Of a stretch of 64,000 nucleotides of DNA, positions 1-63,325 are shown piece after piece. How positions within the stretch are numbered: position 1 is the first letter of the stretch; the number at the start of each line of letters is the position of its first letter. The notes beneath the pieces were generated by a model. The model made no database searches. It saw nothing but the letters and a program-made list of their open reading frames with translations, and was not told the origin of the DNA. Source of the stretch: Mobula hypostoma (Eukaryota); assembly GCF_963921235.1 (NCBI RefSeq), contig NC_086097.1, positions 52,764,001-52,828,000 on the forward strand, given 5' to 3'. Position numbers and translations under genes: made by a program.

Positions 1-1416
1 TCTGTACCCTTTCAAACTTGTTTACATCTTTTCTGTAGGAGGGTAACCAAATCTGCACACAGTACTCCAACATCTTATACAACTTCAACATATCACCCCA
101 TCTCCTGTACTCAATACATTTATTTATGAAGGCCAATGTGCCAAAAGCTTTTTTATGACCCTGTCTACCTGTGACGCCACTTTCAATGAATTACGTACAT
201 GTTTTCCCAGATCCCTTTGTTCTACCACACTCCTCAGTGCCCTACCATTCACTGTGTAGGACCTGGCTTGTTGGTTCTAGCAAGGTGCAACACCTCGCAC
301 TTGTCTGCATTAAATTCCATCTGCCAGTTTTCCGCCCATTTTTCCAGCTGATGCAGATCCCTCTGCAAACCACGATAGCCTTCCTCACTATCCACTACAC
401 CCCCAATCTTGGTGCCATCCGCAAATTTGCTGATCCAGTTAACCCCATTATCATCCAGGTATTGATATAGATGACAAACGACAAAGCACTGATTCCTGTG
501 GCACACCACTAGTCACAGGCCTCTGGTCAGAGAGGCAACCCTCTACTACCACTCTCTGGCTTGTCCAACAAAACAAATGTCTAATCCAATTTACTACTTC
601 ATCCTAAAAGTCGAGCAACCATCTTGACCAGCCTACCACATGGGACCTTTTCAAATGATTGCTGAAGTCCATGACGACACCATCCACTTCATCTCCTTTC
701 CTGGTAACTTCCTCAAAGAACTCTAGAAGATTGGTTAGACATGGTCTACCAAGCACAAAGCCATGCTGACTATCCTTAATCAGTCCATGTTTATCCAAAT
801 ACTTGATATCCTGTCGCTAAGAATATATTCCAATAATTTTCCCACAACTGATGTCAAACTCACTGGCCTATAGCTTCCAGGTTTCTGTTTTAGGTCTTTT
901 TTTAACAGCAGATCAACATTGGTCATACCCCAATCCTCTGGTACTTCTCCTATCACTAAGGATGATTTAAATATCTCTGCTAAGGATCCAGCAATTTCTG
1001 CACTTGCCTCCCGTAGGGTCTGAAGGAAACTTTGCCAGACCCTGGGAATTTATCTGCCCTGATTTGCCTCAGGGTAGTAAGCACCTCCTCCTCTATAGTC
1101 TGTACAGGGTAGATGAAATTGATGCTTTGCCTCATTTCTATAGACTCTGAGTCCAATTCCTAAGTAAATACAGATACAAAGAATTCAATTAAGATCTCCC
1201 CCATCTGTTTTGGTTCCACACATCGATTACCATTCTGGTCTTCCAGAGGACTAATTATGTCCCTTGAATACTTTTGCACTGAACATATCTGTAGAATCCA
1301 TTAGGATTCTCCTTCATCTTCTCTGCTAGAGTGACTTCATGCTTTATTTTAGCCTTCCTGATTTCTTTCTTAAGAGTTCTCTTGTATTTCTTTTAATCCA
1401 TAAGCACCTGATTTGC

Positions 1417-1510
1417 AACACACATCAAAGTTGCTGGTGAACGCAGCAGGCCAAGCAGCATCTATAGGAAGAGGCGCAGTCGACGTTTCAGGCCGAGACC
1501 CTTCGTCAGG
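1417..1510 (-). mobile_element. 94-bp Penelope-derived mini-insert with hammerhead motif, nested in CR1
   Basis: 11-bp TSD acctgatttgc at 1406-1416 and 1511-1521; homologous to the terminus of the PLE at 9672-10897. Confidence 0.85.
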
Positions 1511-1513
1511 ACC
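1478..1513 (-). ncRNA. minimal type-I hammerhead ribozyme motif with intact core
   Basis: Minus strand GTC-CTGACGA-AGG GTCTCGG CCT-GAAAC-GTC/GAC: helix I GUC/GAC, helix II AGG/CCU, predicted cleavage between 1482 and 1481. Confidence 0.75.
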
Positions 1514-2545
1514 TGATTTGCTCTAGCTTCCCTATACCTGCCATGCACCTCCTTTTCTCTCTTAACTAGGGCCTCAATATCTTTTGAAAACCAAGGTTCC
1601 TGACACTTGTTATCTTTACTTTTTATTCTGACAGGCACACGCAATCTTTGTTTTTGAAGACCTCCCACTTACCAAGTACGCCTTTGCCAGAAAGCATACT
1701 TCTACATACTGACGAAGGAAACTTTCCTGAACACATTTGACAAACTCTATCCCTTCTAGCCCTGTGACAGTATGGGATTCCCAGTCAACATGTGGAAAGT
1801 TCAAATCCCCTTCTACGACAACCTTATGAATCTTGCAGCAGTCTGAGGTCTCTTTACAAATTTGTGCCTCTAAATCCCTCGGACTGTTGGGTGGCCTGTA
1901 ATATAGCCCCATTAACGTAGTCATACCTTTCTTATGTCTCAGTTCCACCCATGATGCCTCAGGAGTTGAGTTTTCCAGCCTGTCCTCACTGAGCACTTCC
2001 ATGACCTTTTCCCCGACTTGTAGCGCCACTCTTTTTTTCCTTCAATCCCTCCCACTGTGTCACCAGTAAAACAACGGAACCCTGGAATATTGAGTTGCCA
2101 GTCCTGATCCTCCTGCAACCAGGTCTCACTAATGGCTGCAATGTCACAATTCCAGGTGTTGATCCATGGCCCGAGCTCATCCGCCTTTTGTCCAATATTT
2201 CTTGCATTGCTCAGGACACTAGTTGCACCCTTGCTCAACCTTTTGATTCCTGACTTGGTCTGAGGTTTTACCAACATCTGTCTCCACAAGTTCTCCACTA
2301 ACTGTTCTGGCACCCTGGTTACCATCCCCCTGCAACCCTAATTTAATTTACTAATAAGTACTGTAGATTTTGTAATGAATTGAAATGCATTTTTGTACTG
2401 GTGCTGATAGCAACTTTCAGAAGGGTCTCAGATGAATACCTGAAAGGGATAAAAGTACTAGTAATACAGCTGAGGGACTAAATGAATTGACTTTTAGAGA
2501 GCTGACATGAGGAGTCCAAATAATCTTATTCTGTGCTATACAAAA

Positions 2546-6414: not shown

Positions 6415-6507
6415 CAATACACACAAAATGCTGGAAGAACTCAGCAGGCCAGGCAGCATTCAAGGAAAAAAGAACAGTCGACGTTTCGGCCGAATCCCTT
6501 TGGCAGG
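6415..6507 (-). mobile_element. 93-bp Penelope-derived mini-insert with mutated hammerhead core
   Basis: 13-bp TSD act(a/g)taatttaaa at 6402-6414 and 6508-6520; core reads CTGCCAA instead of CTGANGA. Confidence 0.8.
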
Positions 6508-7176
6508 ACTGTAATTTAAAATCAGAAATGCAGAAAATAATAATGAATGGTTTTTAAATAGGATTAAAGGAATCAGAAGACAAAGATAAAGACAGAATTA
6601 ACTTTTCAGTCACTTAGCAGAACAACAGGAGCAGTGACCAGATTGCAGAAATTAATTTGACATAAAACAACACTTAACTTATTTACTGCCTGTTACACCA
6701 GTGGCGTTTTGGGCAAGAATGAAAATTCTCCATCTCAACATAGAGCAAGACTTAACTACTTACTGCCCATTACACCACTGGAGATGGGGCTGTAATGAAG
6801 GTCCTCAGTCTCAACATAAAACAAGATGAGAAACATAACTCATTTAAAAAGGAAGTAGAAGACGAGAGATCCAAACAAGTTCCTGAAATGTGTGGTTTGG
6901 CTTGGGCTGGAGGTAATACTATAGAAACATTCTTTAAGCTGGTTTCAAACTGCCTTGAACTCTCTACGCTTGAATTGTGAGTGGTCACTTGCTGCCTGAA
7001 TTCATGGTGATACTGACTGATTTTTAAGGGAATAATACGATAAGGGGCCCAGATGAGAGTGAAGTTGAGATCAAGGAGTGGTTATGACATTGAGCTGGGG
7101 AGCATGAAACAACATTAGGGGCTGAAATGTCCCACACCTGCTCCCGTACTTGATTTTCTTCTTCTCCTTTTTGCAT

Positions 7177-7961: not shown

Positions 7962-8779
7962 AGACTTCTGGGCAGACAAAACACCATGGAATTCTGTGGC
8001 TCCTGTTGGCAAGATTTTTGTGAGGACCTGACTATGATGAACTTTCTTGTGGAGTATTTAACTCCGATAAGATTAATTTGCCCGTGGCAGCATTTCTATT
8101 GCCATCACCATTTTTGGCCCAGGCTGATGAAAGTTACACTCGGTTTGGCATGGGTCAGTCCAGGATTTTTGAGTGTTGTATCTCCAATGCTATCAGGTTT
8201 ACAATTACTGAAATGTGTAGAAAAATGTTTTTTTTTCAGCAGCTGTACCATGGAAGACCTAAAAACTACTGTAAATTACAACAATAAATTTCAAATGTGC
8301 CTTTGGTGCTGTTACCTGTAAGGTTATCATTGCACCTGTGAATAGACATAGTTATATATAAGGCAATGTGATAACAAACTTGAATGATTAGATTTTTCTA
8401 CACGAAAATACTGAGATTCATTTCACCATAATATCTGGGAGATCCACCAACTAATCATTTGAAATAAAAGTTTATTTATTCAACTAGTAGTTGAATAAGT
8501 TCTTAGTTGCTCCAGCATGTTATGCGTGTGTTGTTCAAGATTTCCAGCATCGACAGAATCTCTTGTGTTTATAATATTTCAACCCCAGATTGTTGCTTGA
8601 CAGGAACTACCACTGTGTCTCAAGGGAATTCGAAAGGATCCACATATATTTGAAGACCAAGGTTCCATAAAACAAAGGGCAGGACCTGAAGAGCGGATGG
8701 CAGGAGAAAGAGCCAACTGACTGTTTAAACAATGTCAAGACCACCTGCAATGTAACCATCTAGTGACCCTTCCCACCAA

Positions 8780-9671: not shown

Positions 9672-10897
9672 AGACAAGGAAAGATCTGCAGGTGCTGGAA
9701 ATCAAAGCAACCCACACAAAATGCTGGAGGAACTCAGCAGGCCAGGCAGAATCTATTGGAAAAAAGAACAGTCAACATTTCAGGCCGAGGCCCTTCAGCA
9801 GGACTGGAGAAAAAAAAGGTGAAGAGTAGATTTAAAAAGTGAGGGGAGGGGCAAGAGAAACACAAGGTGAGAGGTGAAATCTGGAGGGGAAAGGATGAAG
9901 TAAAGGGCTGAGAAGTTGATTGGTGAAAGAGATACAGGGTTGGAGAAGGGGGGGTCTGACAGGAGAGATCAGAAGAAAGAAAAGATGGGAGGAGAACAAG
10001 CGGGAGTCAACGGGCAGGCAAGGAGATAGGTTGAGAGAGGGAAACAGGAATGGGGAATGGTGAAGAGGTTGAGGGGTTAATTACCAGGAATTCGAGAAAT
10101 CGATGTTCATGCTATCAAGTCTCCTAACCTACGCTGGGTCTCACCGATATACAGGAGGCCACACCGGGAGAACCAGATACAGTAGATGACCCCAACAGAC
10201 TCTCAGGTGGTGTCACCTCACCTAAAGGGGCTGTTTGGGGCCCTGAATGGTAGTGAGGGATGAGCTGTAGCGGCGGGTATAGCACTAGTTCCTGTTGCAA
10301 GGATAACTGCCAGGAGGGACGGACGGACTAGGGAGTCACATAAGGAGCAATCCCTGTGGAAAGCATAAAGTGTCGGGGGAGGGAAAGATGTGCTTGGTGG
10401 TGAGATCCCGTTGGAGATGGCGCAAGTTGTGGAGAATTATGTGCGGGACACGGAGAATGGTGGGGCGGTAGGTGAGGACAAAAGGAATCCTGTCCCTGGT
10501 GGGGTGGCAGGAGGATGGGGTAAGAGCAGACATGTGTGAAATGGAAGAGATGCAATTGAGGGCAGTGTTGATGGTGGTGGAAGGGAAGCCCCTTTCTCTG
10601 AAAAAGGAGGACATCTCCTTCATTCTGGAATGTAAAGCCTCATCCTGAGAGCAGATGTGGCAAAGACGGAGGAACTGAGAGAAGGGGATGGCATTTTTAC
10701 AAGTAAAAGGGTGGGAAGAGGCATAGTCCAGGTAGCCATGAGAGTCTGTGGGTTTAAAATAGACATCAGGAGATAAACTGCCTCCAGAGAGAGAGACAGT
10801 GAGATCGAGAAAGGGGAGGGAGGTGTCAGAAATAGACCAGGTAAATTTGAGGGCAGGGTGGAAGTTGGAGGCAAAGTTGATGAAGTCGACAAGCTCT
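9672..10897 (-). mobile_element. 5'-truncated Penelope-like element (RT C-terminus, GIY-YIG endonuclease, 3' terminus with degenerate hammerhead)
   Basis: ORF 10336-10905 (FHPALKFT..LPFLD..VYFKPTDSHGYL..SSHP..IPFSQFLRL); VIYCIWFSRCGLLYIGET at about 10135-10190; CTGCTGA..GAAATGTT at about 9770-9805. Confidence 0.9.
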
Positions 10898-11187
10898 GCT
10901 AACACGAGAGGGCACCATTTTAAGGTGCTTAGAAGTAGGTACAGAGGAGATGTCAGGGGTAAGTTTTTTATGCAGAGAGTGGTGAGTGCTTGGAATGGGC
11001 TGCTAGCGGTGGTGGTGGAGGTGGATACGATAGGGTCTTTTAAGAGACTCCTGGACAGGTATATGGAGCTCAGAAAAATAGAGGGCTATGGGTAACCCTC
11101 AGTAGTTTTTAAGGTAAGGACATGCTCAGCACAGCTTTGTGGGCCGAAGAGCCTGTATTGTGCTGTAGGTTTTCTATGTTTCTATGT
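10898..11187 (+). mobile_element. CR1 3'-end fragment
   Basis: TRGHHFKV..FFMQRVVSAWNGL; ends in (tttctatg)n. Confidence 0.85.
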
Positions 11188-11654
11188 ATAGGGAATAAGA
11201 CTCCATAGTGAAAATATGATGATGGGGACTAGAGAATTTGAAATTGTTGAAAAGATCCAGAGTGTGTGAAGTGTCATGGATGTGCTTTGTTAGGTTGCCA
11301 GTTCTGTATGAATGTCACAATATAATTTCACGTCCTTCCACAGTCCCACCTTTCATTCCCACTGAAGTTTATTCCTTGATTCTTTCAAATGTAATTGCTC
11401 TAACTTCACCAGTATTGCATCCAGTACTAAGGTCCTTTCTCTCGGAATTTCTTAGCCTCTCTTCTGAATTCTCTGTCCTTTTAGGTGTTCATTAAAAATA
11501 CTCTACGTTGTTTTAAAAACTGGAGAAAATGCTGTTGTAGAAGGGCCGGTAGTGTCTGTGGTAAGAGGAAGAGTTCCAATGACTGCATCTTGACACAATT
11601 TGACAGCTGCTTTTCTCCCCACAGATGCAAATTACCTAACTTCCTCTTTGTTAT

Positions 11655-12240
11655 AAAATCACAGAAGCAGGTCCTTTGGCCCATCTAGTCCATGCTGGAA
11701 AAATGTAAAGAGTCAACGTTTTGGACTGAGACCCTTCTTCAGGACGTCCTGAAGAAGGGATTCAGGCCAAAACATCCATGGTTTACTCTTTTCCATAGAT
11801 GTTGCCTGGCCTGCGGAGTTCCTCCAGTATTTTGTGTGCGTTGCTCAGGATTTCCAGCAGCTGCAGATTTTCTCATGTTTGCGCTAGTCCATACTGGTTT
11901 TCCAACTACCTGCACCTGGTCTGTAGCCCTCCATTCCTCTGAAACATACCTATCCATTCTTCTCTTAAATGCTACAATTGAGCAAGCCTCCACCAATTCC
12001 ACTGACAGCTGGTTCCACAATCTCGTCACCCTCCGAATGAACGAAGATTCCTCTTAAATATTTCACCTTTTACCCTAAACCTTAGCTTGCATGCATTCAT
12101 AATCTATACCTTCATAATTTTGTGCAGCTCTATAAGATCTCCCCCTCATTCTCCTGTGTCCCAAGGAATAAGGTCAACCTATCCCTGTAACTCAGGTTCT
12201 CAAGTCCTGGCAACATCAGTGTAATTTTCTCTGTGTTTTC
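11655..12240 (-). mobile_element. CR1 3' fragment interrupted by an inverted PLE mini-insert (11699-11883)
   Basis: RLWNQLSVELVEACSIVAFKRRMDRY; insert flanked by TSD ctagtccat(g/a)ctgg. Confidence 0.75.
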
Positions 12241-13109
12241 CAAAATTCTCCCTTTTCTGCAGCTAGACTGTTTTTTAGTTCTAATAAAGAGTCTGCAACT
12301 TGAAACATTAACACTGTGATGCTGCCTGAGTGACTGAATGGTTTGCCTTTTCCACTTTTATTTTAGATATCCAGCATCTCCAGTTTCGAGCCCTGTCTAA
12401 TTTGTTATTTCAACTGGAAAGTGATTTGTTTGGACATAGGCCAATTTAAGTAAATCAGAAATGACTTACTCCAGTGTTAAGTGCTTTTAACTGCCAAACA
12501 CCATTCCAGCAATTATCTTACTAAACAGAAACAAATAAAAGAGACAGAAATGCAGTACCCAGCAGATTGTAAGTATTGTAGATAGGGAAACTGAATTAGC
12601 ATTAACCTTATTATTCAAAATGTTCTGAAATTACAGCTATGTTCCTACAGTGTTTATAATTTTTAAAAGCATTATTTTTAAAATGCTTATGAGAGCAGAC
12701 CATTCGTGAATAAAATGTGATTTGATATGCTTCCATTTGTTTTAATGGAAGTATGTGGGATTAAACTGTTACTGAGCAGAAATGATAGAGAAGTTTGTGA
12801 TTAATTAAAATGGCAGCTCTATGTGGATAGTTATTGACTCTAGGGCTGGCCAATGAACTGTCCACACAATTCCAAAATCTCACTATGAGTAATGTCAGAG
12901 GGAAGCATTGTCAATTTCACAGGAAATACTTACCCTGAGATTTTTGGAGACTTTGATCTTTCCTTAGGTGCACTTCTGCCTAATGTTATTCTTTATGCCA
13001 CATTGCCTACCGAGCGACATTACCATTAATATTCTGGAGGGAAGGAAGTGTGGCATATGATCGCTAGTCATAGAGGGTGAGAAATCACGCTGCTCTCAAG
13101 CTGATTTAT

Positions 13110-13222
13110 TAAACATCAACTGTTTATTCCCTTCCATAGATGCTGCCTGACTTGCCGAGTTCTGTCAGAATTTTGTGTGTGTTGCTCAGCATTTCCAGCA
13201 TCTGCAGAATCTTTTGTGTTCA
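13110..13222 (+). mobile_element. PLE-derived terminal fragment lacking most of the hammerhead
   Basis: catagatgctgcctgac...tttgtgtgtgttgc...tttccagcatctgcagaatc homologous to the other copies. Confidence 0.7.
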
Positions 13223-18032: not shown

Positions 18033-18216
18033 CAACATACATCAAAGTTGCTGGTGAATGCAGCAGGCCAAGCAGCATCTGTAGGAAGAGGGTCTCGGCC
18101 TGAAACGTCGACTGCACCTCTTCCTACAGATGCTGCTTGGCCTGCTGCATTCACCAGCAACTTTGATGTATGTTGCTTGAATTTCCAGCATCTGCAGAAT
18201 TCCTGTTGTTTGCGTT
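18033..18216 (+). mobile_element. PLE-derived insert with a perfect 59-bp inverted repeat
   Basis: TSD taatagaatagtca at 18021-18034 and 18217-18230; arms 18033-18091 and 18117-18175. Confidence 0.88.
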
Positions 18217-39937: not shown

Positions 39938-40104
39938 AGATCAATCCAGCATGTGGTATAATTCTTCGTATGTCTTAATTTGGTAAATTCTGCAAGTTCT
40001 TCTTTGGCTTTCTCAGTTACAGTGTCATCATCATCAGTAAACAGAATGAGTAATGGTTTCAGTGGTCGGTAGAAAGTAGGGAGATTTTCCACCGTGAGCT
40101 CAGG
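39938..40104 (-). CDS. txndc16: txndc16 internal coding exon, 167 bp (PELTVENLPTFYRPLKPLLILF...YTTCWIDL)
   Basis: tggtag acceptor, GTGAGT donor; strong similarity to PEITVENLPSYFRLQKPLLILF...CWLNL. Confidence 0.93.
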
Positions 40105-40619
40105 CTACCATTGAAAAACAATTTGTTAAATTATACGATTGCAAAGACTTGCAATCATTAATAACAGACAAAGTCTACCTATACAATTACTAATTTTCAG
40201 TTTTAAGCTGATTTCCCAGTGCCAATGATAAATGTGCTTTACACATTTAAACACATTTGCTAATATCAGAGCACAAATACAAAACCGAATGAAAGGTATA
40301 AATGTATTAAACTTTCAACGGATTCTGTTTCAATTCTCATTGCTCAATGTACGTAATATAACAATAGCAGTTAACTAGAAGAGGTAGATTTGTCAGTCCA
40401 TTTTGCTACTAGAGCCAAATTTTCATGGACTATTGGTTGACATATACTGACTGCCATTATCAAAGTGCGAACAAATTATTAACTATTAAATGACACTACA
40501 AATATTTATGTAAGTACATAATCAGAAACACAAATGACAAATTATAACGAGCAATAAAAATTGTTTGATATATTTTGAAATATTTTTAATTGAGTCTCTT
40601 TCTGACCAAGTAGATATAC

Positions 40620-40872
40620 AGGAAAAAGTCCCATGCAGTATTTCTGAAAAGGCAGATGTTCTGTTTGTCTCTTTGCAAAGATTGCTCAATCAGACACTAT
40701 CACCACAAATTTTTATCAGATAATTTACTCATTTGTTGATGTGGGACCTTATTGTATACTGCCTCGATTATGTCTTTACCTACATAACAATGACAGCACA
40801 ACTCAGCACTTGTAATACATTATGGGGTATCCTGAGGATGTGAAAAAGTATTACATAAATACAGTTTATTCT
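40620..40872 (+). mobile_element. 3' half of an ancient Deu-SINE-like relic
   Basis: gtgggaccttattgt...cctacataacaa...tcctgaggatgtgaaaaagtattacataaatacagt resembles the recalled Deu-SINE 3' tail. Confidence 0.4.
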
Positions 40873-41060
40873 TGCTGCAAAATTGGGAATTGACCAACTG
40901 AACCAAACCATTTTAAGGATAAAGCTAAATCATAATACAAGTCCTAAGTAAAAATCATAGCACTTAATGAAAATATAGAAGTGTGTTATATATGGTGCAC
41001 AGAGAAAACAACTGAATATAATCTGTTTAGATGTTAACATTTGGGAGTAAAAATACCTAC

Positions 41061-41199
41061 AAATCTTTCCAACATTGAACTTTTGATTGCAGATACAATC
41101 TCTTTAGCGTGAAATTTCTCAAGCTGAACTCCTTCTATGTGAGACTTCTCATGCTTCGCAAACACAAGAGCTGGTGGGACCACACCAAATCTCTGGGAG
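41061..41199 (-). CDS. txndc16: txndc16 internal coding exon, 139 bp (SQRFGVVPPALVFAKHEK...SSMLERF)
   Basis: tttcatcaag acceptor, GTAGGT donor; lies in ORF 41034..41228; resembles STKYAASLPALLLARH...DALLEMF. Confidence 0.88.
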
Positions 41200-41989
41200 C
41201 TTGATGAAAATCCAGCAATTAAAATCAAGAATGAAAATAAAGTACCGTTTATTGAACATAAGTAACTTCTATTTCTGAATTAAAATAAAACAGTGTTCCT
41301 CCCCCCCACCCCCCCCCACCCCCCCAGAGGATGTCATCAATGTGCCTTTCTTTATTCAATATATTGTACATATTTTTATACATCGTTTCATTTTTGAGAA
41401 TGTTTTAATCAAAATCATTCATACACAATTAACTGTAAAGCTAAAGAACAAAAACATATACATGACATTTTGAACAGAATTTAAAATCATTCTTTGTGAA
41501 ATATGCCATATTCTATAGGCAAATATTGGTCATAACTTCAAGACAGATAATACAGTAAAACTTTATAACCTTGCATGTTGTTCTTAAAATGCTGATTTTA
41601 CTAACTGCAGGCTGTATAAAAAAAACCTCTATTCGCAGCTTAATGAAAAATTGTAGCACATTTTGCCAAGGCAGTGACTGGCTGAGCCAGGGAGCAAATG
41701 CGACTCAGTTTACTACAGCAAGAGCTAGGAGCCAAATTGAATTCCATTGTGATGCAAAAAAAAACACAAAGCCATAAGCTCCACCCTTCATCTCTGCTGA
41801 AAGTTCACTGACCACATCCTGCCAGAGTTGCTTTCCCTTTCTCCACCAACTGTAAATACCAGCAGAGAAACAATTCCAAATATATTTTGATATTGTCCAA
41901 TTCACTGTTACTGCTTCTCAGGACCTTGCAGCACAGTAAAATTAAAACCAGAGATTATAGAGAACAACATACACAAAGTACTAAAATAA

Positions 41990-44900: not shown

Positions 44901-45160
44901 ATATTGGTTGCCCTTCGGTTCAGGTGTAACCCGTCCTTTTTGCACAGGTCATACCTTCCCCAGAAGACATCCTAATGATCCATAAATATGAAACCCTGTC
45001 CCTTGCGCTGATTCCTCAGCCACGCATTCATCTGCCAACTCATCCTATTCTTACCCTCATCGGTGCGTGTCACAGGCAGCTATCCAAAAATTACTAGCCT
45101 GGAGGTCCTGCTTTTCATCTTTCTACTGAACTCCTTATATTCTCTCTTCAGGACCTCCTG
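41990..45160 (-). mobile_element. degenerate CR1 LINE (end of ORF1, APE, RT)
   Basis: ORFs 43044-44514 (LLEFFEEIT, DWKIANVTPLFKK, WVLSNVPDLIRELKIKEPLG); (tcttatg) tail. Confidence 0.9.
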
Positions 45161-45414
45161 AAGCCAGAATATAGGGAGTTAGGTAGAAAGTGGCAAAGTA
45201 GGACCTCCAGGGTAGTAATGTCTATTTCTCACACATATTCATGTGTCTTAGGCACTTTGACACACATTACAAAAAAATTGTGTTGGATATAGCGCTTGTG
45301 TACAATATAATACAAGGGAGGTCCTACCATGCAACATTTGAAATAGCAACAAACTATTACAGCATTTTGAATATGATTTATTGCACAACTTGAAAGTAAG
45401 TTAAAGTCTCAGGC

Positions 45415-46155
45415 CCTAAGATATAGGAGCAGAATTCGGCCATTCGGCCCATCGAGTCTGCTCTACTATTTCATCAAGGCTCATCCATTCCCCTCTCAGC
45501 CCATTCTCCAGCCTTCTCTCCATAACCTTTGATACCATGACCAGAACCTTCTCTCCATAACCTTTGATACCATGACTAATCAAGAACCTATATTTAAGAA
45601 CTCCACTTTAAATACTTTTAATGACTTGGCTCCAGAGCTGTCCATGGCAATGAATTCCACAGACTCACCACCCTCTGGCTAAATAAATTCTTCCTCATCT
45701 CAGCACTAAATGGATGGCCCTCTATCCTGACGCTGTGCCCTCTGATCCTAGACCCACCCACAATAGGAAACATCCTCTCCACATCCACTGCATCTCAGCA
45801 CTAAATGGATGTCCCTCTATCCTGACACTGTGCCCTCTGATCCTAGACGCACCCACAATAAGAAACATCCTCTCTACATCCACTCTATTCCAGCACTAAA
45901 TGGATGTCCCTCTATCCTGACACCATGCCTTCTGATCCCAGACTTACCCACTATAGGAAACATCCTCTCCATATCCACTCTATCTCAGCCTGTCAATATT
46001 CAATAGGTTTCAATGAGATCGCCTCTTATTCTTCTAAACTCCAATGAGCCCACAGCCATCAAATGTTCCTCATACGTTAACTGCTTCTTTCCAGAATCAT
46101 TCTTATTAATCCCCTCTGGACCTTCTCCAGTGTAAGCACATCCTATCTTAAATAT
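45415..46155 (-). mobile_element. CR1 3' fragment with internal tandem amplifications
   Basis: Homologous to 41990-42500; 95-bp unit x3 and 35-bp unit x2. Confidence 0.85.
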
Positions 46156-46248
46156 AGATCGCTAATCAAAGTTACAATATATCTCAAAATTCTAAGTATA
46201 ACCATAATCGTCATTTATCTGAAAAAAGAATGTTACAAAATGACTTAC

Positions 46249-46333
46249 AGATATGGATAGTCATTCCCTATATAACATCCAGTGGCCACAATGCCCCGCA
46301 GGGAATTAGCTGCCTTAATAAAATCAACATGCT
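46249..46333 (-). CDS. txndc16: txndc16 internal coding exon, 85 bp (EHVDFIKAANSLRGIVATGCYIGNDYPYL)
   Basis: tttttcag acceptor, GTAAGT donor; resembles KEDFSEAGNYLKGYVITGIY; phases fit both neighbours. Confidence 0.9.
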
Positions 46334-46460
46334 CTGAAAAAGATAAAGTCAGAGAATTTATGACAATAGGCCTACGAAGCCATCAAAATATTATTAAAAG
46401 ATAGTGCACAGAATTGCAATTAGATCTCAGGATATTGCTGATATAACTGTACACATATTA

Positions 46461-46975
46461 TAATAGGAAAGATGTCAACAAAATTGAGAGCGTACAGAGG
46501 AGGTTTACTAGAACGTTGCCTGGGTTTGATCTCCTAAGTTACAGAGAAAGGTTGAACAAGTTGGGTCTTTATTCTTTGGAGCGTAGAAGGTTGAGGGGGG
46601 ACTTGACAGAGATATTTAAAATTATGAGGGGGATAGATAGAGTTGATGTGGATAGGCTTTTTCCATTGAGAGTGGGGGAGTTTCAAACAAGAGGACATGA
46701 GTTGAGAGTTAAGGGGCAAAAGTTTAGGGGTAACATGAGGGGGAACTTCTTTACTCAGAAAGTGGTAGCTGTGTGGAATGAGCTTCCAGCAGAAGTGGCT
46801 GAGGCAGGTTTGATGTTGTCATTTAAAGTTAAATTGGATAGCTATATGGACAGGAAAGGAATGGAGGGTTATGGGCTGAGTGCAGGTCGGTGGGACTAGG
46901 TGAGAGTAAGAGTTCGGCACGGACTAGAGGGGCCGAGATGGCCTGTTTCCGAGCTGTAATTGTTATATGGTTATA
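46461..46975 (+). mobile_element. 5'-truncated CR1, same subfamily as 2546-5726
   Basis: ORF 46516-46899 nearly identical to the C-terminus of ORF 4688-5644. Confidence 0.95.
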
Positions 46976-47577
46976 TTCATCCATGTAGATTCTGTATAAA
47001 CACAAGTAAACCACTCTTTAAGGTTTCGTACTGCCAATTTTTTTTTCTCTTACTGTAATTTGAGTTTGGCAGTTAAACAATTTTAACGAACTAGCAAAGA
47101 CTCCAGATTTAGTAATTGTGATGTAGCAATTATGCTGAGACTAGCAACCCAGGGACTGTGAAATTAGATGCAAACAGAATGTTCCTCTGTTGATTTCTGT
47201 CCAATGATGGAAAGCTGCCTCCTCAGTTTGATCAGCAGTCCATGGGTCTCTTGATCAAGATTAAATGTTGGCTGTCAATACTGTCGGAATTCCCACCAGT
47301 AACTAGAGACAAGAAATTACTGTGACTTTCCCAGATTCGTCCATGCCTAGAGTACTACAGTGTACTTCAATCATTTCATTTGTCAGTCACCATTGGCAGA
47401 ACGGCCTAACGCATCACATTCAGTGATCAGTGACAGAAGTTAGAAGAATCAGCCAAAGATGAAGAACCTGAGAAGAATATTCAATAAGCAAAGCAACAGA
47501 GCGGTTACCTGGTGGTCCTGCTATTAAAAAGGAAAGGACATGTTCAAATAGAAAGAAAAAAAACTGCACATTAATCA

Positions 47578-48148
47578 TGTACGATAGTGAAACACTCCGG
47601 TTCTGTTGACCATGTTAGTCTAGGGAAGACAATCTCCGGACCAGCCAAACGTGTAAAATTGAGGCACGTGCCCACCCCAAAACCCACTATTTGTGTGGAT
47701 GCTGTGTCATTCGTTACCTTGTTACAAATGAGTGCTACAAAATAACAGACAGTACACAATTAAAAGATTTCGCTTTATAGTTCTTAATTTGACTAAAGGG
47801 TTAGTAAAGAAAGAACAAAAAAAGGGCCCATTTTAATGCAACAGTCTAATGGAGCTCACAGTTTCCCTGTCGCCGATCCTCCTTCGATCTCACCCTGGGC
47901 TTCGTCGAATCACAGCCCCACTCCTACAACCTCTTCCCTCCAGCATCTTCTCTCTTCATCCCCTTAACGAAAGCCCCAAGCCCAACCTTTGTGTCCCTCA
48001 CCAGAGAAACCTCCCCTTAATCCGATGGCACACAATTCTCCTATCTCTCATCCTCAACAGTAACCCAAACAAGCAGCTTGCAGAGAACAGCAAAAAAATC
48101 AAATACAGAACAAAATAACATTAAAAAAATATGGACCAGGGCATTACA
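47578..48148 (-). mobile_element. putative solo LTR
   Basis: TGTAATGCCC...ATCGTACA termini on the minus strand, 571 bp, non-coding; no clean TSD. Confidence 0.45.
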
Positions 48149-48249
48149 ATAGTAAGGTAGGATACAGTTTCAGTGTTTGGACTAGGGGTATAAATGATCA
48201 ATCTTGTGAAACAAGTTCAAAGCAAATTTCATCAGCTGAGGCATTTAAA

Positions 48250-49845
48250 TCAGGTTTATTATCACCAGCATGTGACATGAAATTTGTTAAGCAGTTCAGT
48301 GCAATAGATAATATAGGAGAGAAAAAAAACTAATAATAAATAAATAAATAAATTACAGTATATGTATATTGAATAGATTTTAAAAACATGCAAAAAACAG
48401 AAATACTGTATATTAAAAAAGGTGAGGTAGTGTCCAAGGGTTAAATGTCCATTTAGGAATCGGATGGCAGAGGGGAAGAGGGGAAGAAGCTGTTCCTGAA
48501 TCACTGAGTGTGTGCCTACAGGCTTCTGTACCTCCTACCTGATGGTAACAGTGAGAAAAGGGCATACCCTGGGTGCTGGAAGTCCTTAATAATGGACACT
48601 GACTTTCTGAGACACTGCTCCCTAAAGATGTTCTGTGTACTTTGTAGGCTAGTGCCCAAGATGGAGCTGACTAGATTTACAATCCTCTGCAGCTCCTTTC
48701 AGTCCTGTGCAGTAGCCCCCCCCCCCATACCAGACAGTGATGCAGCCTGTCAGAATGCTTTCCACGGTACAACTATAGAAGTTTTTGAGTGTATCTGTTG
48801 ACTTGCCAAATCTCTTCAAACTCCCAATGAAGTGCTGTCTTGCTTTCTTTATAACTACATCGATATGTTGGGACCAGGTTAGATCCTCAGAGATCTTGAC
48901 ACCCAAGAACTTGAAACTGCTCACTCTCTCCACTTCTGATCCCTCTATGAGGATTGGTATGTGTTCCTTCACCTTACCCTTCCTGAAGTCCACAATCAGC
49001 TCTTTCGTCTTACTGACATTGAGTGCCAGGTTGTTGCTGTGGCACCACTCCACTAGTTGGGATATCTCACTCCTGTACGCCCTCTCGTCACCACCTGAGA
49101 TTCTACGAATAATGGTTGTATCATCAGCAAATTTATAGATGATGTTTCAGCTATGCCTAGCCACAAAGTCATGGGTATATAGAGAGAAGAGCAGTGGGCT
49201 AAGCACACACCCCTGAGGTGCACCAGTGTTGATCGTCAGCGAGGAGGATATGTTATCACCAATCTGCACAGATTGTGGTCTTCCGGTTAGGAAGTTGAGG
49301 ATCCAATTGCAGAGGGATGTACAGAGGCCCAGGTTCTGCAACTTTCTCAATCAGGATTGTGGGAATGATGGTATTAAATGCTGAGCTATAGTCGATGAAC
49401 AGCATCCTGACATAGGTGTTTGTGTTGCCCAGGTGGTCTAAAGCCATGTAGAGAGTCATTGAGATTGTGTCTGCTGTTGACCTACTGTGACAATACACAA
49501 ATTGCAATAGGTCCAGGTCCTTGCTGAGGCAGGAGTTCAGTCTAGTCATAACCAACCTCTCAAAGCATCTCATCACTGTCGCTGTGAATGCTACCGGGCG
49601 ATAGTCATTAAGGCAGTTCACATTATTCTTCATAGGCACTGGTATAATTGTTGCCTTTTTGAAGCGTGGGAACTTCTGCCTGTAGCAGTGAGAGGTTGAA
49701 AATGTCTTTGAATACTCCTGCCAGTTGGTTGGCACAGGCTTTCAGAGCCTTACCAGGTACTCCATCGGGACCTTACGCCTTGGGAGGGTTCATTTTCTTC
49801 AAAGACAGCCTAACATCAGCCTCTGACACAGAGATCACAGGGTCA
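48250..49845 (-). mobile_element. 5'-truncated Rex1/Babar LINE
   Basis: [20 protein letters not shown]; close relative of 36185-38500. Confidence 0.9.
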
Positions 49846-50394
49846 TTAAAATTCAACTCATTAAAACTGTTATATAAATCTAATAAAATTAATAAGGGGT
49901 ATGAATTTACAAATTGGCATAAAATCCATCATGTTTACCAACACTCATTATGGAAGCAAAGTTACCATCTTTAACTTGGCCAATGCAAACCCTTGCCTAC
50001 ACTTGCATAGACTCTAAGCTGTGCTCAGAAGAAACTTAGTTCAGAGATATTTCAAGGGAAACAACAAATTCTGGCCAATCACCAAGGTCTAAAAACTGTG
50101 AATAAATAAACTTTTAAAAGAAACACAAGGTAATTTTGACAAAGACAAGCATTTCAAATTTAATAAGAAATAGTGAGCCAAATAAATGTTAGCAGAGATG
50201 GATGAAAAATGAGAATGGGATTTTGGTATGGAACAGATCTCAGGCAGTAGAGGTTTTGGACAAGCAGAAGTTCATTTATTGTGGAGTTTTGCATAGAATT
50301 AGAAAAATAAAAGCTAGAGACTACAAGGGTATAATTAAGTGTTTCAGTAATAATGGATCATTCATAAATCTGACAGCAGAGGAGAAGAAATTGA

Positions 50395-51540
50395 TCCTGA
50401 GTTGTTGAGTTTATATCTTCAGGCTCCTGAACCTCGTCTCTGATGGTAGTAATGAGAAAAGGACATGTCCCAGAGGAGGGTCCTTAATGACAGATGCTGC
50501 CTCTTTAAGCTGTCCTTGATGGTAGGGAGAGCTGTATCCTTGAAATATCTGCAGCCACTTGTGATCCTGTGCATTTGAAGCTCCATGTCAGGCTGTAACA
50601 CAACCAGTCAGAATGCCCTCCATCGGAGAGGGAGGAGGTGTTAGCAGCGCACCACGCACGCGCAGCTCTCCGGTGAAAATGATATCATATCCATTAAATA
50701 GGGGCCGTGGACAATTCTGATTTGACGGAGGCAGACGTGAAAGCACAGAGGAACATCTGGAGAAATTTCTGAAACGCCAGTTTGCTGCCATTGTTACTGC
50801 GCAATTGAGAATGTTCTGGAGGGAAGGCCTCAAAATCCCTGGCTTTGCCTGCTGCTGGCGACCAAGAATGAGGTTGAATCGTTCGGACAGAGATGGTACT
50901 CGGTGTCAGAGGGTTGATCGGAGGCTCGAAGTTTTCGGACGACTCAGAGTTGGACTGTGGCCGGGCATGGCAGGGAGAGTTTTCTTCCTTCTCCTGTCTG
51001 TGTGAGATGTGGGACTTTGAGAAACTTTGAACTCTTTTACTGTGCCATGGCCTGTTCTTCATCAAGTTATGGCATTGTTGCACTGTTGTAACTATATGTT
51101 ATAATTATGTGGTTTTGTTAGTTTTTCCAGTCTTGGTCTGTCCTGTGTTTTGTGATATCACACCAGAGGAATATTGTATCATTCCTTAACGCATGCATTA
51201 CTAAATGACAATAAAAGAGGACTGCGTGTCCTCATAATCTAATCTAATCTAATCATAGGCGTATAGAAATTTGCCAGAGTCTTTGGTGACGTAACAAATC
51301 TCCTCAGATTTCGAGCCACTGGCATGCTTTCTTCATGATGGCAACAATGTGTTCAGCCCAGAACCGACCTGTTGAGATGTTGACACCCTGGAATTTACAA
51401 CTGTTCGGCCTTTCCACCACTGGTCCCTCAATGAAGATTGGTCTGTGTTCTCCTAACTTCACCTCCATGAAGTGTACAATCAGTTTCTTGGTCTTGCTGA
51501 TGTTTATGTGAGATTGTTGTTGCAACGCCATGCAACCAGA
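50395..51540 (-). mobile_element. degenerate Rex1/Babar 3' fragment split by an insert at about 50623-51255
   Basis: MEGILTGCVTA on one side and NISKTKKLIVHF..VERPNSCKFQGVNIS on the other. Confidence 0.7.
50623..51255 (+). mobile_element. non-coding non-autonomous retroelement with (AATCT)n tail, copy 1
   Basis: GC/CpG-rich head; shares blocks and 3' end with 59085-59752. Confidence 0.7.
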
Positions 51541-51559
51541 GAAATTGTACCTGCTGTAG

Positions 51560-52090
51560 CCCTGTTGTACTCTCGGTGTTCTTGTGCATGAGTTACAATA
51601 AGTTAGCATACAGATGCAGCAAATGGTTGGGCAGGCAAATAGCATATTGCCCTTTATAACCAAATGACAGGTATTTAGAAATATGGAAGAATTTTTATGA
51701 TTGCACGGGAACCACGTGAGGTGTAGTTTTGATTTCCCTGTTAAGGAAACTATGTACTGGCATTGGAAGCAGTACAAGAGAGATTCATGAGTTGAATTCC
51801 TGTTATGAGAGGGTTGTCATATCAAAAGTGGCTGAAGAAGTTAGAACTATATTCTTTGTAGTATAGGAAAATGAGGAGTGGTCTTATTGAAAAGTACAAA
51901 ATTATGAGGATCATGACATCATAAGTGTTGAGATGTTTCCACTAGTAGGAGAATCACAAACAAGAGAACGTTGTTACATGAAAAGAGGACAGTCATATAA
52001 AACTAACTTGCTTAGGACTTTCTTCTTCAGGAGGATGAATAATAACAAGAATGTTCTATCCTGAAGGGTTGTCGTGGCTAGATCTTTGTG
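51560..52090 (+). mobile_element. old degenerate CR1 3' fragment
   Basis: gagattcatgagttgaattcctg...tttccactagtaggagaatcacaaacaagag. Confidence 0.55.
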
Positions 52091-52797
52091 GATAAAAACA
52101 GAAAATTCTGGAAACATTCAGTTGGTCAAGCAATAACTGTGGAGAAAGAAAGGCAAGTCTTGAAAAGAGCTCATGGGTTTTAAAGAGTCTTCAGAAAGTT
52201 ATGGAATGAATAGTTCACCACTAAAGAAGATACAGGAGTTTAAAGCACAGTAAAAAAATATGCAGGTTGTAAATTAGGCAATGAGGAGGAAAGTATGAGA
52301 ATCCGTTCTGAAAGCTCACAAGGATAACAAAAAGTAGTAGTGGATGTGAAATCGAAAAAGAATGGGAAATACTGCCATGATAGAGAGAGTCATCATTTCA
52401 AAACAGGCGTGGATTTTGACACTTTGCTGAGAATCAAACAGTACACAAAGATTACATACTATTGGGTTCAAAAAGCTAAGAAAGGGGTGGGATTTCTATT
52501 TGGTAATACAACATCACTGAACAATATCAGTGAAAATTAGCTGGCAACACGGTATCTGTAATATAACTTGAGTGGATGATCTGAGGTAAAGTTGAGGTCA
52601 TTGAAATACATATTGAATATACTGCTAAACCTGAGATTTATCTAGGATTTAGGCCATGCCATTTATGAAAGTTGTCTTTTGATTCTGATTTCTATTAGCT
52701 TGCCTTTAGGAAACAAAGCAAAGCTCACTTCCTGTGTTATGCTTGAATATGATAGTGATTATCTACTCAGTGAGTTCACTTGACGATTTATGTTTAC

Positions 52798-52922
52798 CTT
52801 TGTCCAGGTCTGGACTGAATAATCCTACAACAGAAACGTTCTGATACAGTTTGAGATCTCCACTTAGATAGGCTTCAATATCTTCTGTTGTTGTTAATTT
52901 GGCAGGATTAGCCAGCCTACTC
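52798..52922 (-). CDS. txndc16: txndc16 internal coding exon, 125 bp (SRLANPAKLTTTEDIEAYLSGDLKLYQNVSVVGLFSPDLDK)
   Basis: ttttag acceptor and GTAAAC donor; peptide resembles the recalled human TXNDC16 segment ...[28 protein letters not shown]; phase fits the next exon. Confidence 0.9.
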
Positions 52923-61604: not shown

Positions 61605-62175
61605 AAACATGAGAAATCAAGAGTAACACACATAAAATGCTGGAGGAACTCAGCAAGCCAGGCAGCATCTATGGAAAAGAGTAAGCACTCAACGTTTCGG
61701 GCTGAGACCTTTCATCAGGATTGGAAAACAAGGAGAGAAGTCAGGGTAAGAAGGTGGGGTGGAAGAAGTACAAGATGGTAGGTGATAGGTGAAACTGGAA
61801 GAGAGGGAGGGGTGAATTAAAGAGCTGGAAGGTTGATTGGTGAAAGAGATAAAGGGCTGGAGAAGGGGAAATCTGATAGCAGAGCACAGAAGACTATGAA
61901 AGAAAGGGGAATGTGAGGAGCACCCGAGGGAGGTAATGGGCAGGTAAGAAGATGTGTCAGAGAGAAGCATGAATGGGGAATGGCGATGGGAGGGGACAAT
62001 TACCGAAAGTGCAAGAAATCGATGTTCATGCTATCAGGTTGGAGGCTACCCAGACGGAATACAACATGTTGCTCCTCCAACTTGCATTTGGCCTCATTTG
62101 GGCAGTAAAGGAGGCCACGGGCTAACATGTCAGAATGGGAATGGGAAGTAGAATTGAAATGGGTGTCCACCGGGA
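61605..62175 (-). mobile_element. Penelope-like 3' fragment with hammerhead motif
   Basis: Homologous to about 9672-10120; CTGATGA-AAGGTCTCAGCCC-GAAAC-GTT at 61687-61722. Confidence 0.85.
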
Positions 62176-62176
62176 A

Positions 62177-62515
62177 ACATAGAAAACCTACACCACAATA
62201 CAGGCCCTTCGGCCCACAAAGCTGTGCCGAACATATCCTTACCTGAGAAATTACCCAGGGTTACCCATTGCCCTCTATTTTTCTGAGCTCCATATACCTA
62301 TCCAGGAGTCTCTTAAAAGACCCTATTGTATCCGCTTCCACCACTGTCGCCGGCAGCTCATTCCACACATTCACCACTCTCTGCGTAAAAGACTTACCCC
62401 TGATATCTCTTCTGTACCTACTTCCAAGCACCTTAAAAGTGTGCCCTCTTGTGCTAGCCATTTCAGCCCTGGGAAAAAGCCTCTGACTATCAATGCCTTT
62501 CATCATCTTATACAC
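62177..62515 (-). mobile_element. CR1 3' fragment
   Basis: ORF 62261-62515; same subfamily as 10898-11187. Confidence 0.9.
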
Positions 62516-62569
62516 TTATCCGTAATTGTGCCTTTGTGGCAGATAGAGCGAAGGTGCTCAAGGAGGGAG

Positions 62570-63325
62570 ATTGAAAATCTCTCTCAATGTCAGTAAGACC
62601 AAGGAACTGATAGCAGACTTCAGGAGAGCAGTAACCATTGGAGGATCAGAGGTACAGAGAGTCAATAACTTTAAATTCCTGGGTGTCACTATCTCAGAGG
62701 ACCTGTCCTGGACCCATCATATAAACTTTATTGTGAAGAAAGCACGACAGCTCCTCGACTTCCTCAGGACTTTGCGGAGATTCAACAAGTCATCGACAAC
62801 CTTGGCAAACTTGTACAGATGTGTGGTGGAAAGTGTGCTGACAGGCTGCATTACAGCCTGGTATGGGAACACCAATGCCTCTGAGCAGAAAATCCTGCAA
62901 AAGGTACTGGATTCGGCCCAGTACATTACAGTTAAAACCCTCCCAACCACTAAGCACATCTACACAAAATATTGCCGTAGAAAATTAGCACCCATCACAA
63001 AGATCCTCACCACAAAGCCCATGCTCTTTTCTCACTGTTGCCATCAGATAGAAGGTACAGGTGCTTCAGGATTCACACCATCAGGTTCAAGAACAACAAG
63101 CTCTTGAACAAAAGAAGATAACAACACCCATTAGTCCTGACGAAGGGTCTTGGCCTGAAACGTCAACTGTACCTCTTCCTAGAGATGCTGCCCGGCCTGC
63201 TGCGTTCACCAGCAACTTTGATGTGTGTTGCTTGAATTTCCAGCATCTGCAGAATCCCGGTTGTTTAAGGACTCTTATCTTGTTATTTCATGCTCATTAT
63301 TTATTGCTATTTATCACTTGAATTT
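62570..63325 (+). mobile_element. Rex1/Babar 3' fragment interrupted by a PLE mini-insert (63131-63266)
   Basis: LNVSKTKELIADFRR..FKFLGVTISEDLSW. Confidence 0.85.
63133..63168 (+). ncRNA. minimal hammerhead ribozyme motif (intact core, one helix I mismatch)
   Basis: AGTC-CTGACGA-AGG GTCTTGG CCT-GAAAC-GTC/AACT; predicted cleavage after 63164. Confidence 0.65.

What the first reader, a model, noticed from the sequence alone, without database searches (positions are those of the whole stretch)
1406..63266. Dispersed family of hammerhead-ribozyme-bearing, Penelope-derived mini-retroelements (retrozyme-like)
Seen: at least eight related copies of a 90-185 nt non-coding unit (1417, 6415, 9672, 11699, 13110, 18033, 61605, 63131, plus faint relics near 8510 and 25410). 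The unit starts with (A)GTC-CTGANGA-AGGGTCTCGGCCY-GAAAC-GTC-GAC, which folds as a minimal type-I hammerhead with short helices I and II and a palindromic ACGT in place of helix III. Two copies are the 3' termini of longer PLE fragments, one with RT and GIY-YIG relics. Four short copies have their own 11-14 bp TSDs, so they inserted independently. Established: minimal hammerheads occur in PLE pseudo-LTRs and are thought to cleave as dimers. Inference: the PLE terminus has spread as a ribozyme-carrying non-autonomous family at roughly one copy per 8 kb here, including inside a probable txndc16 intron. I cannot tell whether it has been described in this lineage.
Basis: partly seen in the sequence, partly recalled or inferred. 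Interest (0 to 1): 0.72.

Follow-up and report, generated by a model that had tools for sequence, protein, structure and literature searches.

The report
Penelope retroelement tails with hammerhead motif
These scattered 60-190-base repeats are the broken-off tail ends of a very abundant Penelope-like jumping gene of rays, carrying its already known small hammerhead ribozyme motif, mostly decayed; the kind is ordinary, and the one oddity is that several copies begin exactly at the ribozyme's edge.

Summary
The copies are real. All ten named loci were recovered, plus two fainter relics. Four have 11-14 bp target-site duplications, and two are ends of longer Neptune-type Penelope-like elements (PLEs). 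The minimal hammerhead is real but mostly dead: one locus (1478-1513) passes a full descriptor, two named copies lack the first core box, there are no compensatory changes, and 16 of 31 changes are CpG decay. It is not a retrozyme: no tandem units and no canonical hammerhead. The two fixed 3' ends, inverted arms and duplications are known PLE signatures. Short copies fall on both sides of the only well-supported tree split, two of them beside long copies, so they look like repeated by-products of the autonomous element, not one non-autonomous family. Residual interest: 4 of 7 short loci start at the ribozyme's 5' edge (P about 0.001-0.02, post hoc). My genome-wide test of this failed. The scan already noted this family, its tail and this edge in other windows of the same genome.

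The parts
1415..1512 (-). Copy A: short PLE terminal unit, tail-less 3' end, 5' end at GTCC; young subfamily; lies inside an older LINE fragment
1478..1513 (-). The only intact minimal type-I hammerhead motif in the window; predicted cut between 1482 and 1481 (GUC/GAC)
1406..1416 (+). TSD of copy A (partner 1511-1521), 11 bp exact, overlapping the element start by 2 bases
   Evidence: sequence
6415..6511 (-). Copy B: short, tail-less, 5' end at (CA)GTCC, first core box mutated; 13-bp TSD at 6402 and 6508 (1 mismatch)
8505..8573 (+). Copy I: 3' end with tail only, no hammerhead, no TSD found
9672..11300 (-). Copy C: long 5'-truncated PLE. Terminal unit 9672-9806 with tail and broken hammerhead core; about 280-nt pyrimidine-rich 3' UTR; GIY-YIG relic near 10110-10364; RT C-terminal part 10210-10899 (72% to P0001, E 6e-98); more RT at 11186-11296 beyond an inserted LINE 3' fragment (about 10898-11185)
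11696..11883 (.). Copy D: head-to-head insertion; inverted arm 11696-11745 (-) and forward arm 11746-11883 (+) both start at GTCC; both have the GAAAC box mutated; 14-bp TSD at 11685 and 11884 (1 mismatch)
12281..12386 (+).
   Evidence: E 0.033
13111..13220 (+). Copy E: starts about 7 bases before the predicted cut site, so no hammerhead; has tail; no TSD found
18033..18216 (.). Copy F: inverted arm 18033-18091 (-, tail-less end) plus forward arm 18089-18216 (+, with 41-nt tail); lacks the CTGANGA box; arms identical over 59 nt; 14-bp exact TSD at 18021 and 18217; young subfamily
25392..25498 (+). Relic J: old diverged terminus, 270 bases past the txndc16 stop codon
52098..52149 (-).
   Evidence: E 0.014
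61605..62176 (-). Copy G: long PLE end. Core letters kept (GUU triplet) but helix I damaged; 3' UTR; C-terminal part of the endonuclease 62003-62176 (72% to P0001, E 4e-21); cut by a LINE 3' fragment; weak continuation near 62530-62583; intronic, sense to txndc16
63133..63267 (+). Copy H: short, with 37-nt tail, 5' end at AGTCC; core kept, first pair of helix I lost by a CpG-type change; no TSD found; young subfamily; intronic, antisense to txndc16
25774..52921 (-). Host gene txndc16: six exons covering residues 521-850 (52921-52799, 46337-46248, 41255-41061, 40104-39937, 35022-34831, 26058-25774); earlier exons are not in the window

Best explanation
These are 3' termini (pseudo-LTR ends) of a very abundant Neptune-type Penelope-like retrotransposon of rays, inserted by the autonomous element's own RT and GIY-YIG endonuclease. 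Shown here: PLE protein relics upstream of two copies; a minimal hammerhead about 280 nt behind the stop codon; TSDs; two fixed 3' ends about 37-41 nt apart; inverted arms; at least two subfamilies. Taken from the literature: PLE RT starts inside its RNA at two sites that bound the 'tail', extends both target strands, and makes a product that shortens when the RNA is cut at its 5' end; the terminal unit is also present near the 5' end of the mRNA of a partial-tandem PLE. Inferred: RT started at these sites runs about 97 or 134 nt and stops at the 5' edge of the hammerhead, giving fixed-size cassettes again and again in different subfamilies. The stop is most likely the 5' end of the RNA (about 45%), or a stop or template release at the pyrimidine tract-CAG / helix I boundary (about 40%), or chance plus microhomology (about 15%). 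After insertion the copies are single, cannot pair with a second hammerhead in cis, and decay neutrally. The ribozyme is cargo of the parent element, not the engine of the short copies.
For: PLE identity: 18 proteins at E <= 0.001 among 830 candidates, the top ones from rays at 76-81%; tblastn map; CX2-5CxxC linker in 13 of 18 fetched proteins whose YIGET-type endonuclease motif my pattern matched, including 4 ray proteins (motif from PMC8557442). Two 3' ends: tail-less in A, B and the inverted arm of F; tail in C, D, E, F, H, I. In public contigs laid on copy C, the top-listed loose ends at the 3' side split into tail-like consensus (892+1373 in X1; 767+1090 in X5) and unrelated A-rich flanks (2014; 1631; agreement 0.37). 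Tree: A, F, H against B, C, D, E, G, I with bootstrap 100; fixed-start copies lie on both sides. By eye B shares a T-run with long C, and D shares two motifs with long G. Decay: 0 of 8 pairs with a two-sided change, 86.8% paired against 86.2% shuffled; 16 of 31 changes are CpG-type. 2 of 4 TSD-flanked insertions (D, F) have no intact core and B has a mutated one. PMC11167929 reports that hammerhead mutants do not affect PLE insertion in vitro.
Against: The three young copies (A, F, H) are all short and have no long relative in the window, so a young non-autonomous subfamily fits them. Support inside the older group is low (33-53), so B-with-C and D-with-G are not firm. The cause of the 5' edge is not shown: Inr-like words occur 9 times in 320 nt of C and 6 times in G, and in D. 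virilis Penelope the transcription start lies 46+75 nt upstream of the equivalent point (PMC2377424, PMC4209133). The terminal 80 nt drew about 9-10 times the summed contig depth of the best body bin in both DNA runs; the tool says this is no copy number, but it would also fit extra amplification of short units. Only 2 of 4 TSDs are AT-rich. Seven arms give the covariation test little power.
Confidence: 0.7

Rival explanations
1. A PLE-dependent non-autonomous family (SINE-like): short cassettes that start at the hammerhead edge are transcribed themselves and are re-copied by the PLE protein.
For: 4 of 7 short loci share one 5' end, P 0.005 under a uniform null and 0.001-0.017 under three others; A, F, H are 91-95% alike and all short; the terminal segment is over-represented in laid contigs (weak); non-autonomous PLE derivatives are known (MRC1, PMC8557442, passage).
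Against: Fixed-start copies come from both sides of the bootstrap-100 split; two length classes follow the PLE tail; F starts elsewhere although it is in the young group; no promoter or RNA shown.
Confidence: 0.15
2. Plain random 5' truncation. The shared start is chance, helped by microhomology between target and element.
For: E, F and I start at other places, and C and G are long; in A and B the TSD overlaps the element start by 2-4 bases; n is small and the test was made after seeing the data.
Against: D has both arms meeting exactly at this point with no target DNA involved, and H has no TSD overlap; P 0.001-0.017.
Confidence: 0.12
3. Non-LTR retrozyme: units are cut out by dimeric hammerheads, circularised and reinserted.
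For: One intact minimal motif with the ACGT palindrome; a 2026 preprint derives animal retrozymes from PLE pLTRs and found some in one chondrichthyan (10.64898/2026.07.22.740005).
Against: No tandem array of the unit among 9 TRF rows; no copy starts at the cut site; the sequence is not permuted at the cut site; the motif is minimal, not canonical; D's two motifs are on opposite strands; the modelled active dimer (-9.5 kcal/mol) is far above the best dimer fold (-28.7) (this energy model ignores the catalytic core).
Confidence: 0.03

Closest known systems
Minimal hammerheads (min-HHR) in pLTRs of metazoan PLEs (Cervera and De la Pena 2014, PMC4209133; parts 1-2 of 4 read)
   Same: Type-I core, no helix III, palindromic 15.2-16.2 positions, extra base before helix II, G10.1-C11.1 in the majority form; mostly single, dispersed and attributed to truncated PLEs; opposite-strand pairs; found in fish Xena, Poseidon and Neptune elements, with thousands of copies in coelacanth and Xenopus.
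   Different: Host is a ray, which the parts read do not mention; helix II is 4 bp, not the 7-8 bp of the schistosome form; no covariation seen in this small sample.
Endonuclease-bearing PLEs of the Neptune type (Craig et al. 2021, PMC8557442; Arkhipova et al. 2013, PMC3846280; passages read)
   Same: RT followed by GIY-YIG with CCHH cysteines and a CX2-5CxxC linker; strong 5' truncation; inverted 5' copies; optional 30-40-bp tail; TSDs of about 8-10 bp; solo pLTRs.
   Different: No full-length or partial-tandem copy in the window; TSDs 11-14 bp; a preferred 5' end at the hammerhead edge was not found in the passages read.
Poseidon PAc of Anolis (Frangieh et al. 2024, PMC11167929; parts 1-2 of 4 read)
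   Same: Two internal RT start sites bounding the tail; both strands extended (fits copy F, one arm from each 3' end); AT-rich targets; hammerhead roughly 85-125 nt upstream of the ends here, 111-118 nt from the ORF start there.
   Different: Other PLE clade; in PAc the ORF starts at helix II, whereas here no match of the unit to a PLE N-terminus was found (inconclusive).
Non-LTR retrozymes (Cervera and de la Pena 2020, PMC7229834, passages; Li et al. 2026 preprint 10.64898/2026.07.22.740005, parts 1-3 of 5)
   Same: Type-I hammerhead, non-coding, related to PLE pLTRs.
   Different: Retrozymes are tandem arrays of 150-450-bp monomers, with canonical hammerheads in the 2020 paper, expressed as circles; these are dispersed single units with PLE ends and mostly broken minimal motifs.

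Membership tests
EN+ Penelope-like element | PLE-type RT followed by a C-terminal GIY-YIG endonuclease | tested here: met
   Copy C maps to RT and linker/EN parts of P0001, copy G to the EN C-terminus; P0001 hits PF01541 at E 4.6e-4 (below the curated cut-off), P0013 hits RVT_1 and GIY-YIG above cut-off; the window's own EN piece scores only E 0.093
EN+ Penelope-like element | Optional 30-40-bp tail at the 3' end | tested here: met
   Two 3' end classes, tail 37-41 nt; both classes among loose ends in four public runs
EN+ Penelope-like element | Inverted 5'-truncated copies and TSDs | tested here: met
   Copies D and F; TSDs at 4 of 11 loci examined
EN+ Penelope-like element | Partial-tandem full-length copy forming direct pLTRs | not testable with these tools
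   None in the window; no genome held
Neptune clade | CX2-5CxxC linker between RT and EN (shared with Nematis, absent in Penelope/Poseidon) | tested here: met
   Present in ray relatives P0001, P0005, P0007, P0009; decayed in copy C
Neptune clade | Placement in an RT tree with named reference elements | not tested
   No named PLE references were fetched
PLE minimal hammerhead (min-HHR) | Core boxes, helix I, helix II with extra base, palindrome in place of helix III | tested here: met
   Copy A only; 1 hit, 0 in 100 shuffles; 3 of 7 arms keep the core letters
PLE minimal hammerhead (min-HHR) | Compensatory changes in helices I and II | tested here: inconclusive
   0 of 8 pairs in 7 arms, not above shuffles; the sample is small and made of decayed copies
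PLE minimal hammerhead (min-HHR) | Self-cleavage as dimer or with protein help | not testable with these tools
   Bench test; folding model favours inactive folds
Non-LTR retrozyme | Head-to-tail tandem monomers, each with a hammerhead | tested here: not met
   No array of the unit in the window; none among the 15 joints shown of 873 (858 not shown)
Non-LTR retrozyme | Canonical type-I hammerhead with helix III and loop contacts (2020 definition) | tested here: not met
   No Rfam hammerhead match at E <= 1; motif is minimal. The 2026 preprint also admits minimal motifs, but only in tandem
Non-LTR retrozyme | Monomeric linear and circular RNA | not testable with these tools
   Only contigs of guessed RNA runs were on offer
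Non-autonomous PLE-derived family (SINE-like) | Defined 5' and 3' ends | tested here: inconclusive
   4 of 7 short loci share the 5' end, 3 do not; two 3' ends; genome-wide test failed
Non-autonomous PLE-derived family (SINE-like) | Short copies form their own lineage apart from long copies | tested here: not met
   A and H group with F, B and D with long C and G, across a bootstrap-100 split; still open for the young group alone

The most novel reading that the evidence does not exclude
The ray PLE has a defined RNA 5' end (or RT stop) exactly at the hammerhead's edge, so internal RT initiation mints fixed 97- and 134-nt ribozyme cassettes as a routine product; in the young subfamily (1417, 18033, 63131) these cassettes are transcribed and re-copied as a PLE-dependent SINE-like family. 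That would be a visible first step from PLE terminus to retrozyme monomer in a vertebrate.
Probability: 0.15. Interest if true: 0.6.

Novelty: new member of a known kind. Interest (0 to 1): 0.25.

Why it matters
As it stands it is a ray example of something described in 2014: dispersed minimal hammerheads left by truncated PLEs. Its value is as a large natural data set. With over 130,000 contigs laid per DNA run in two organisms, the insertion ends could test the PLE mechanism in vivo: two RT start sites, extension of both target ends, and whether the 5' edge of the hammerhead marks an RNA end. If a self-propagating short subfamily exists, it would give a concrete route from PLE termini to retrozymes, which a 2026 preprint proposes on phylogenetic grounds. 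Nothing here suggests an effect on txndc16: neither intronic copy has an intact motif.

Tried and rejected
Whole-genome count: no genome held. Outside DNA: 0 matches in viral contigs, metagenomes (22, 42) and prokaryote genomes (43). Genome-wide 5'-end test: I laid four runs on copy C, but its private changes at about 9750-9800 broke the alignments before the edge at 9806. Depth fell 3.8- to 6.8-fold across the edge but rose above the pre-edge value 80 nt further on in all four runs, so it shows nothing; the tool also warned that not all joints and loose ends were counted in the two DNA runs. No RNA holder is on record (no RNA holder listed); two guessed-RNA contig sets hold the family, which is no evidence of expression. 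Ribozyme-made 5' ends: none of the copies starts at the cut site; E starts at least 7 bases before it. Spliced-RNA template: no shared upstream exon sequence precedes A, B or H; the only donor-like site in the 3' UTR region is at the stop codon. Inr as proof of a start site: rejected, too common in this UTR. Unit as ORF start: no match better than E 0.2 among 145 proteins, and no full-length ray protein was held. Rfam miRNA and scaRNA hits are hairpin or repeat artefacts below gathering score. The first-box column was off by one; core status was read instead. Papers: eight searches listed no description of this family in rays or of a preferred 5' end; Repbase, Dfam and most subscription journals were not searchable, and the preprint's supplements (which name its chondrichthyan and families) are closed, so 'undescribed in this lineage' is not established.
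Full report
Observation. A profile built from ten arms found 12 arms at 10 loci with E <= 3.2e-8, two more relics at E 0.014 (52098-52149) and 0.033 (12281-12386), and six hits at E >= 4 that I ignored. I label the loci A 1415-1512 (-), B 6415-6511 (-), C 9672-about 11300 (-), D 11696-11883, E 13111-13220 (+), F 18033-18216, G 61605-62176 (-), H 63133-63267 (+), I 8505-8573 (+), J 25392-25498 (+). TSDs were found at 4 of 11 loci examined (A 11 bp, B 13, D 14, F 14); 5 of 300 random pairs scored as well. No whole genome is held.

The ribozyme motif. Copy A has the full minimal type-I layout: 4-bp helix I, CTGACGA, one extra base, 4-bp helix II with a tetraloop, GAAAC-GTC, and the ACGT palindrome; the predicted cut is between 1482 and 1481. 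My descriptor found 1 hit in the window and none in 100 Markov shuffles; an exact pattern found A and H against 0.00 expected. Of the seven arms that span the motif, A, G and H keep all core letters; H has lost the first pair of helix I and G a later one; B and C have a mutated first box; both arms of D have a mutated GAAAC box. E, F and I lack part or all of the motif. Rfam listed no hammerhead family among 6 matches. No pair of 8 shows a two-sided change and pairing (86.8%) is not above shuffles (86.2%); 16 of 31 differences from the majority are CpG-type transitions. That is neutral decay, though seven arms give little power. Folding favours inactive forms: monomer -10.0 against -6.0 kcal/mol, dimer -28.7 against -9.5, in a model that ignores the core. 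Loose-end consensus from public contigs keeps the 3' half of the motif with CCC before GAAAC, apart from CpG changes, so the parent form has the usual G10.1-C11.1 pair.

What it belongs to. The stretch 10339-10899 (-) hits 18 proteins among 830 candidates, led by ray predictions at 76-81%. Mapping them back shows RT C-terminal part, linker and start of GIY-YIG in C, more RT at 11186-11296 beyond an inserted repeat, and the endonuclease C-terminus in G. Pfam on the window pieces is weak (GIY-YIG E 0.093), stronger on relatives. Four ray relatives carry the CX2-5CxxC linker (13 of 18 proteins tested), which PMC8557442 (passages) gives for Neptune and Nematis and not Penelope/Poseidon; I call it Neptune-type on that motif alone. 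The motif lies about 280 nt behind the stop codon, after a 75-77% pyrimidine UTR. The repeats that cut C and G and surround A are LINE fragments; 'CR1-type' is my recall and was not tested. The host gene is txndc16 (98% to a Mobula protein over the last exon); six exons for residues 521-850 lie between 52921 and 25774 and earlier ones are not in the window, so G and H are intronic if the gene is collinear. Neither has an intact motif.

The ends. 3' ends fall in two classes: tail-less (A, B, inverted arm of F) and with a 37-41-nt tail (C, D, E, F, H, I; G appears to have a tail with an internal deletion). Contigs of four public runs laid on C (140,308, 132,588, 13,969 and 8,562 laid) show the same two classes among the 24 loose-end rows shown (4,644 not shown): tail consensus in 892+1373 contigs and unrelated A-rich flanks in 2014 for X1; 767+1090 and 1631 for X5. 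This is the PLE tail (PMC8557442; PMC3846280, passages), which PMC11167929 (parts 1-2 of 4) traces to two internal RT start sites, with both target strands extended. F, with one arm from each end, fits that directly. 5' ends: A, B, H and both arms of D start at (A)GTCC, the 5' strand of helix I; E, F and I start elsewhere; C and G are long. Four of seven within 4 nt has P 0.005 under a uniform null and 0.001-0.017 under three nulls with nine copies. I set these positions by hand and tested after seeing them, and in A and B the TSD overlaps the start. The point is not the cut site, which is about 30 nt downstream. In C and G it follows a pyrimidine tract and CAG (CAA in G); PMC4209133 (parts 1-2 of 4) says the intron of D. 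virilis Penelope ends at the 5' end of helix I, and PMC2377424 (passages) puts the start site 46 nt before that 75-nt intron. It is also an Inr-like word (consensus recalled), but such words are common here. My attempt to test the clustering genome-wide failed (see Tried and rejected).

One family or by-product? A, F and H are 91-95% alike; the other copies are 65-82% alike among themselves. The tree has one strong split, A/F/H against the rest (100), with fixed-start copies on both sides; B joins long C at 53 and other nodes are 33-62 (J, K, L and the inverted arms left out). So the same start was made in at least two subfamilies, one of which has long members here. TSDs show independent insertion but not a non-autonomous life cycle, since any truncated PLE insertion can have them. 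Three of four TSD-flanked insertions have no intact core now, and F never had the first box. Against my reading: all three young copies are short, and the terminal 80 nt drew about 9-10 times the depth of the best body bin in both DNA runs, a figure the tool says is not a copy number.

Retrozyme? PMC7229834 (passages) defines animal retrozymes as tandem 150-450-bp repeats with canonical hammerheads, expressed as circles, and sets PLE minimal motifs apart. The 2026 preprint (parts 1-3 of 5; supplements closed) requires two consecutive units, derives retrozymes from pLTRs, and found cleavage in 1 of 9 elements tested. No tandem array of this unit occurs in the window. The label fails; 'PLE terminus that could seed one' is fair.

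Mechanism and odds. Shown: identity, ends, inversions, TSDs, decay. From the literature: internal RT initiation, the unit's presence at the 5' end of PLE mRNA, and no need for ribozyme cleavage in insertion in vitro. Inferred: RT started at either tail site stops at the hammerhead's 5' edge and so yields 97- or 134-nt cassettes in each subfamily (0.70 overall). Rivals: a re-mobilised short family (0.15), chance truncation (0.12), retrozyme (0.03).

Novelty. New member of a known kind. PMC4209133 already reports thousands of dispersed single minimal hammerheads from truncated PLEs in vertebrates. Eight paper searches listed no account of this family in rays, but Repbase and Dfam could not be searched. 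The scan's own notes show the same family many times in this genome, including the tail, the stop at the ribozyme edge and the same retrozyme idea set aside; these are unchecked notes, I had noted my reading before seeing them, and they are not counted as support. Interest 0.25.

Noticed in passing
window:18033-18175: The two arms of copy F are identical over 59 nt and share changes that A (3 differences) and H (5) lack: both arms came from one template, or were homogenised later. A perfect 59-bp hairpin that scores against miRNA models by shape only.
   Followed up: partly
window:11745-11746: Copy D is head-to-head with the junction exactly at the helix I GTC on both arms, which suggests fold-back or twin priming that both ended at the same template point.
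   Followed up: partly
window:10898-11185 and 62174-62458: Both long PLE copies are interrupted by 3' fragments of the same LINE family (88% alike over 285 nt); in C about 100 residues of RT are missing at the insertion.
   Followed up: partly
window:10083-10110: Copy C lacks the middle of the GIY-YIG domain by an internal deletion; copy G retains the end of that part.
   Followed up: partly
window:10054-10085 and 61996-62005: A donor-like GTAATT overlaps the PLE stop codon in C and G; a ray gene model (P0007) ends with PLE endonuclease sequence followed by other residues at this point, and several ray gene models (P0003, P0007, P0015) contain PLE protein, so this family is being annotated as host exons.
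   Followed up: no
window:7175-7961: Minisatellite of 33 copies of a 24-nt purine-rich unit.
   Followed up: no
window:29319-29465 and 34310-34456: 147-nt inverted repeats (78%) flank a 4.8-kb stretch that holds L1-like ORF pieces (29934-32399 on +, a 3' piece near 33000-34200); label from recall.
   Followed up: no
window:36305-37639 and 48468-49846: Two copies of a LINE-like RT element 12.2 kb apart, 88-93% alike, in txndc16 introns.
   Followed up: no
window:45696-45989 and 57305-57474: Short tandem arrays (95-nt unit x3 inside a LINE 3' region; 48-nt unit x3.6); none related to the PLE unit.
   Followed up: no
window:62547-63104: Open frame of a LINE-like element that hits Pfam ALKBH8_N (E 3.7e-7); copy H is inserted near its 3' end with no TSD.
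   Followed up: partly
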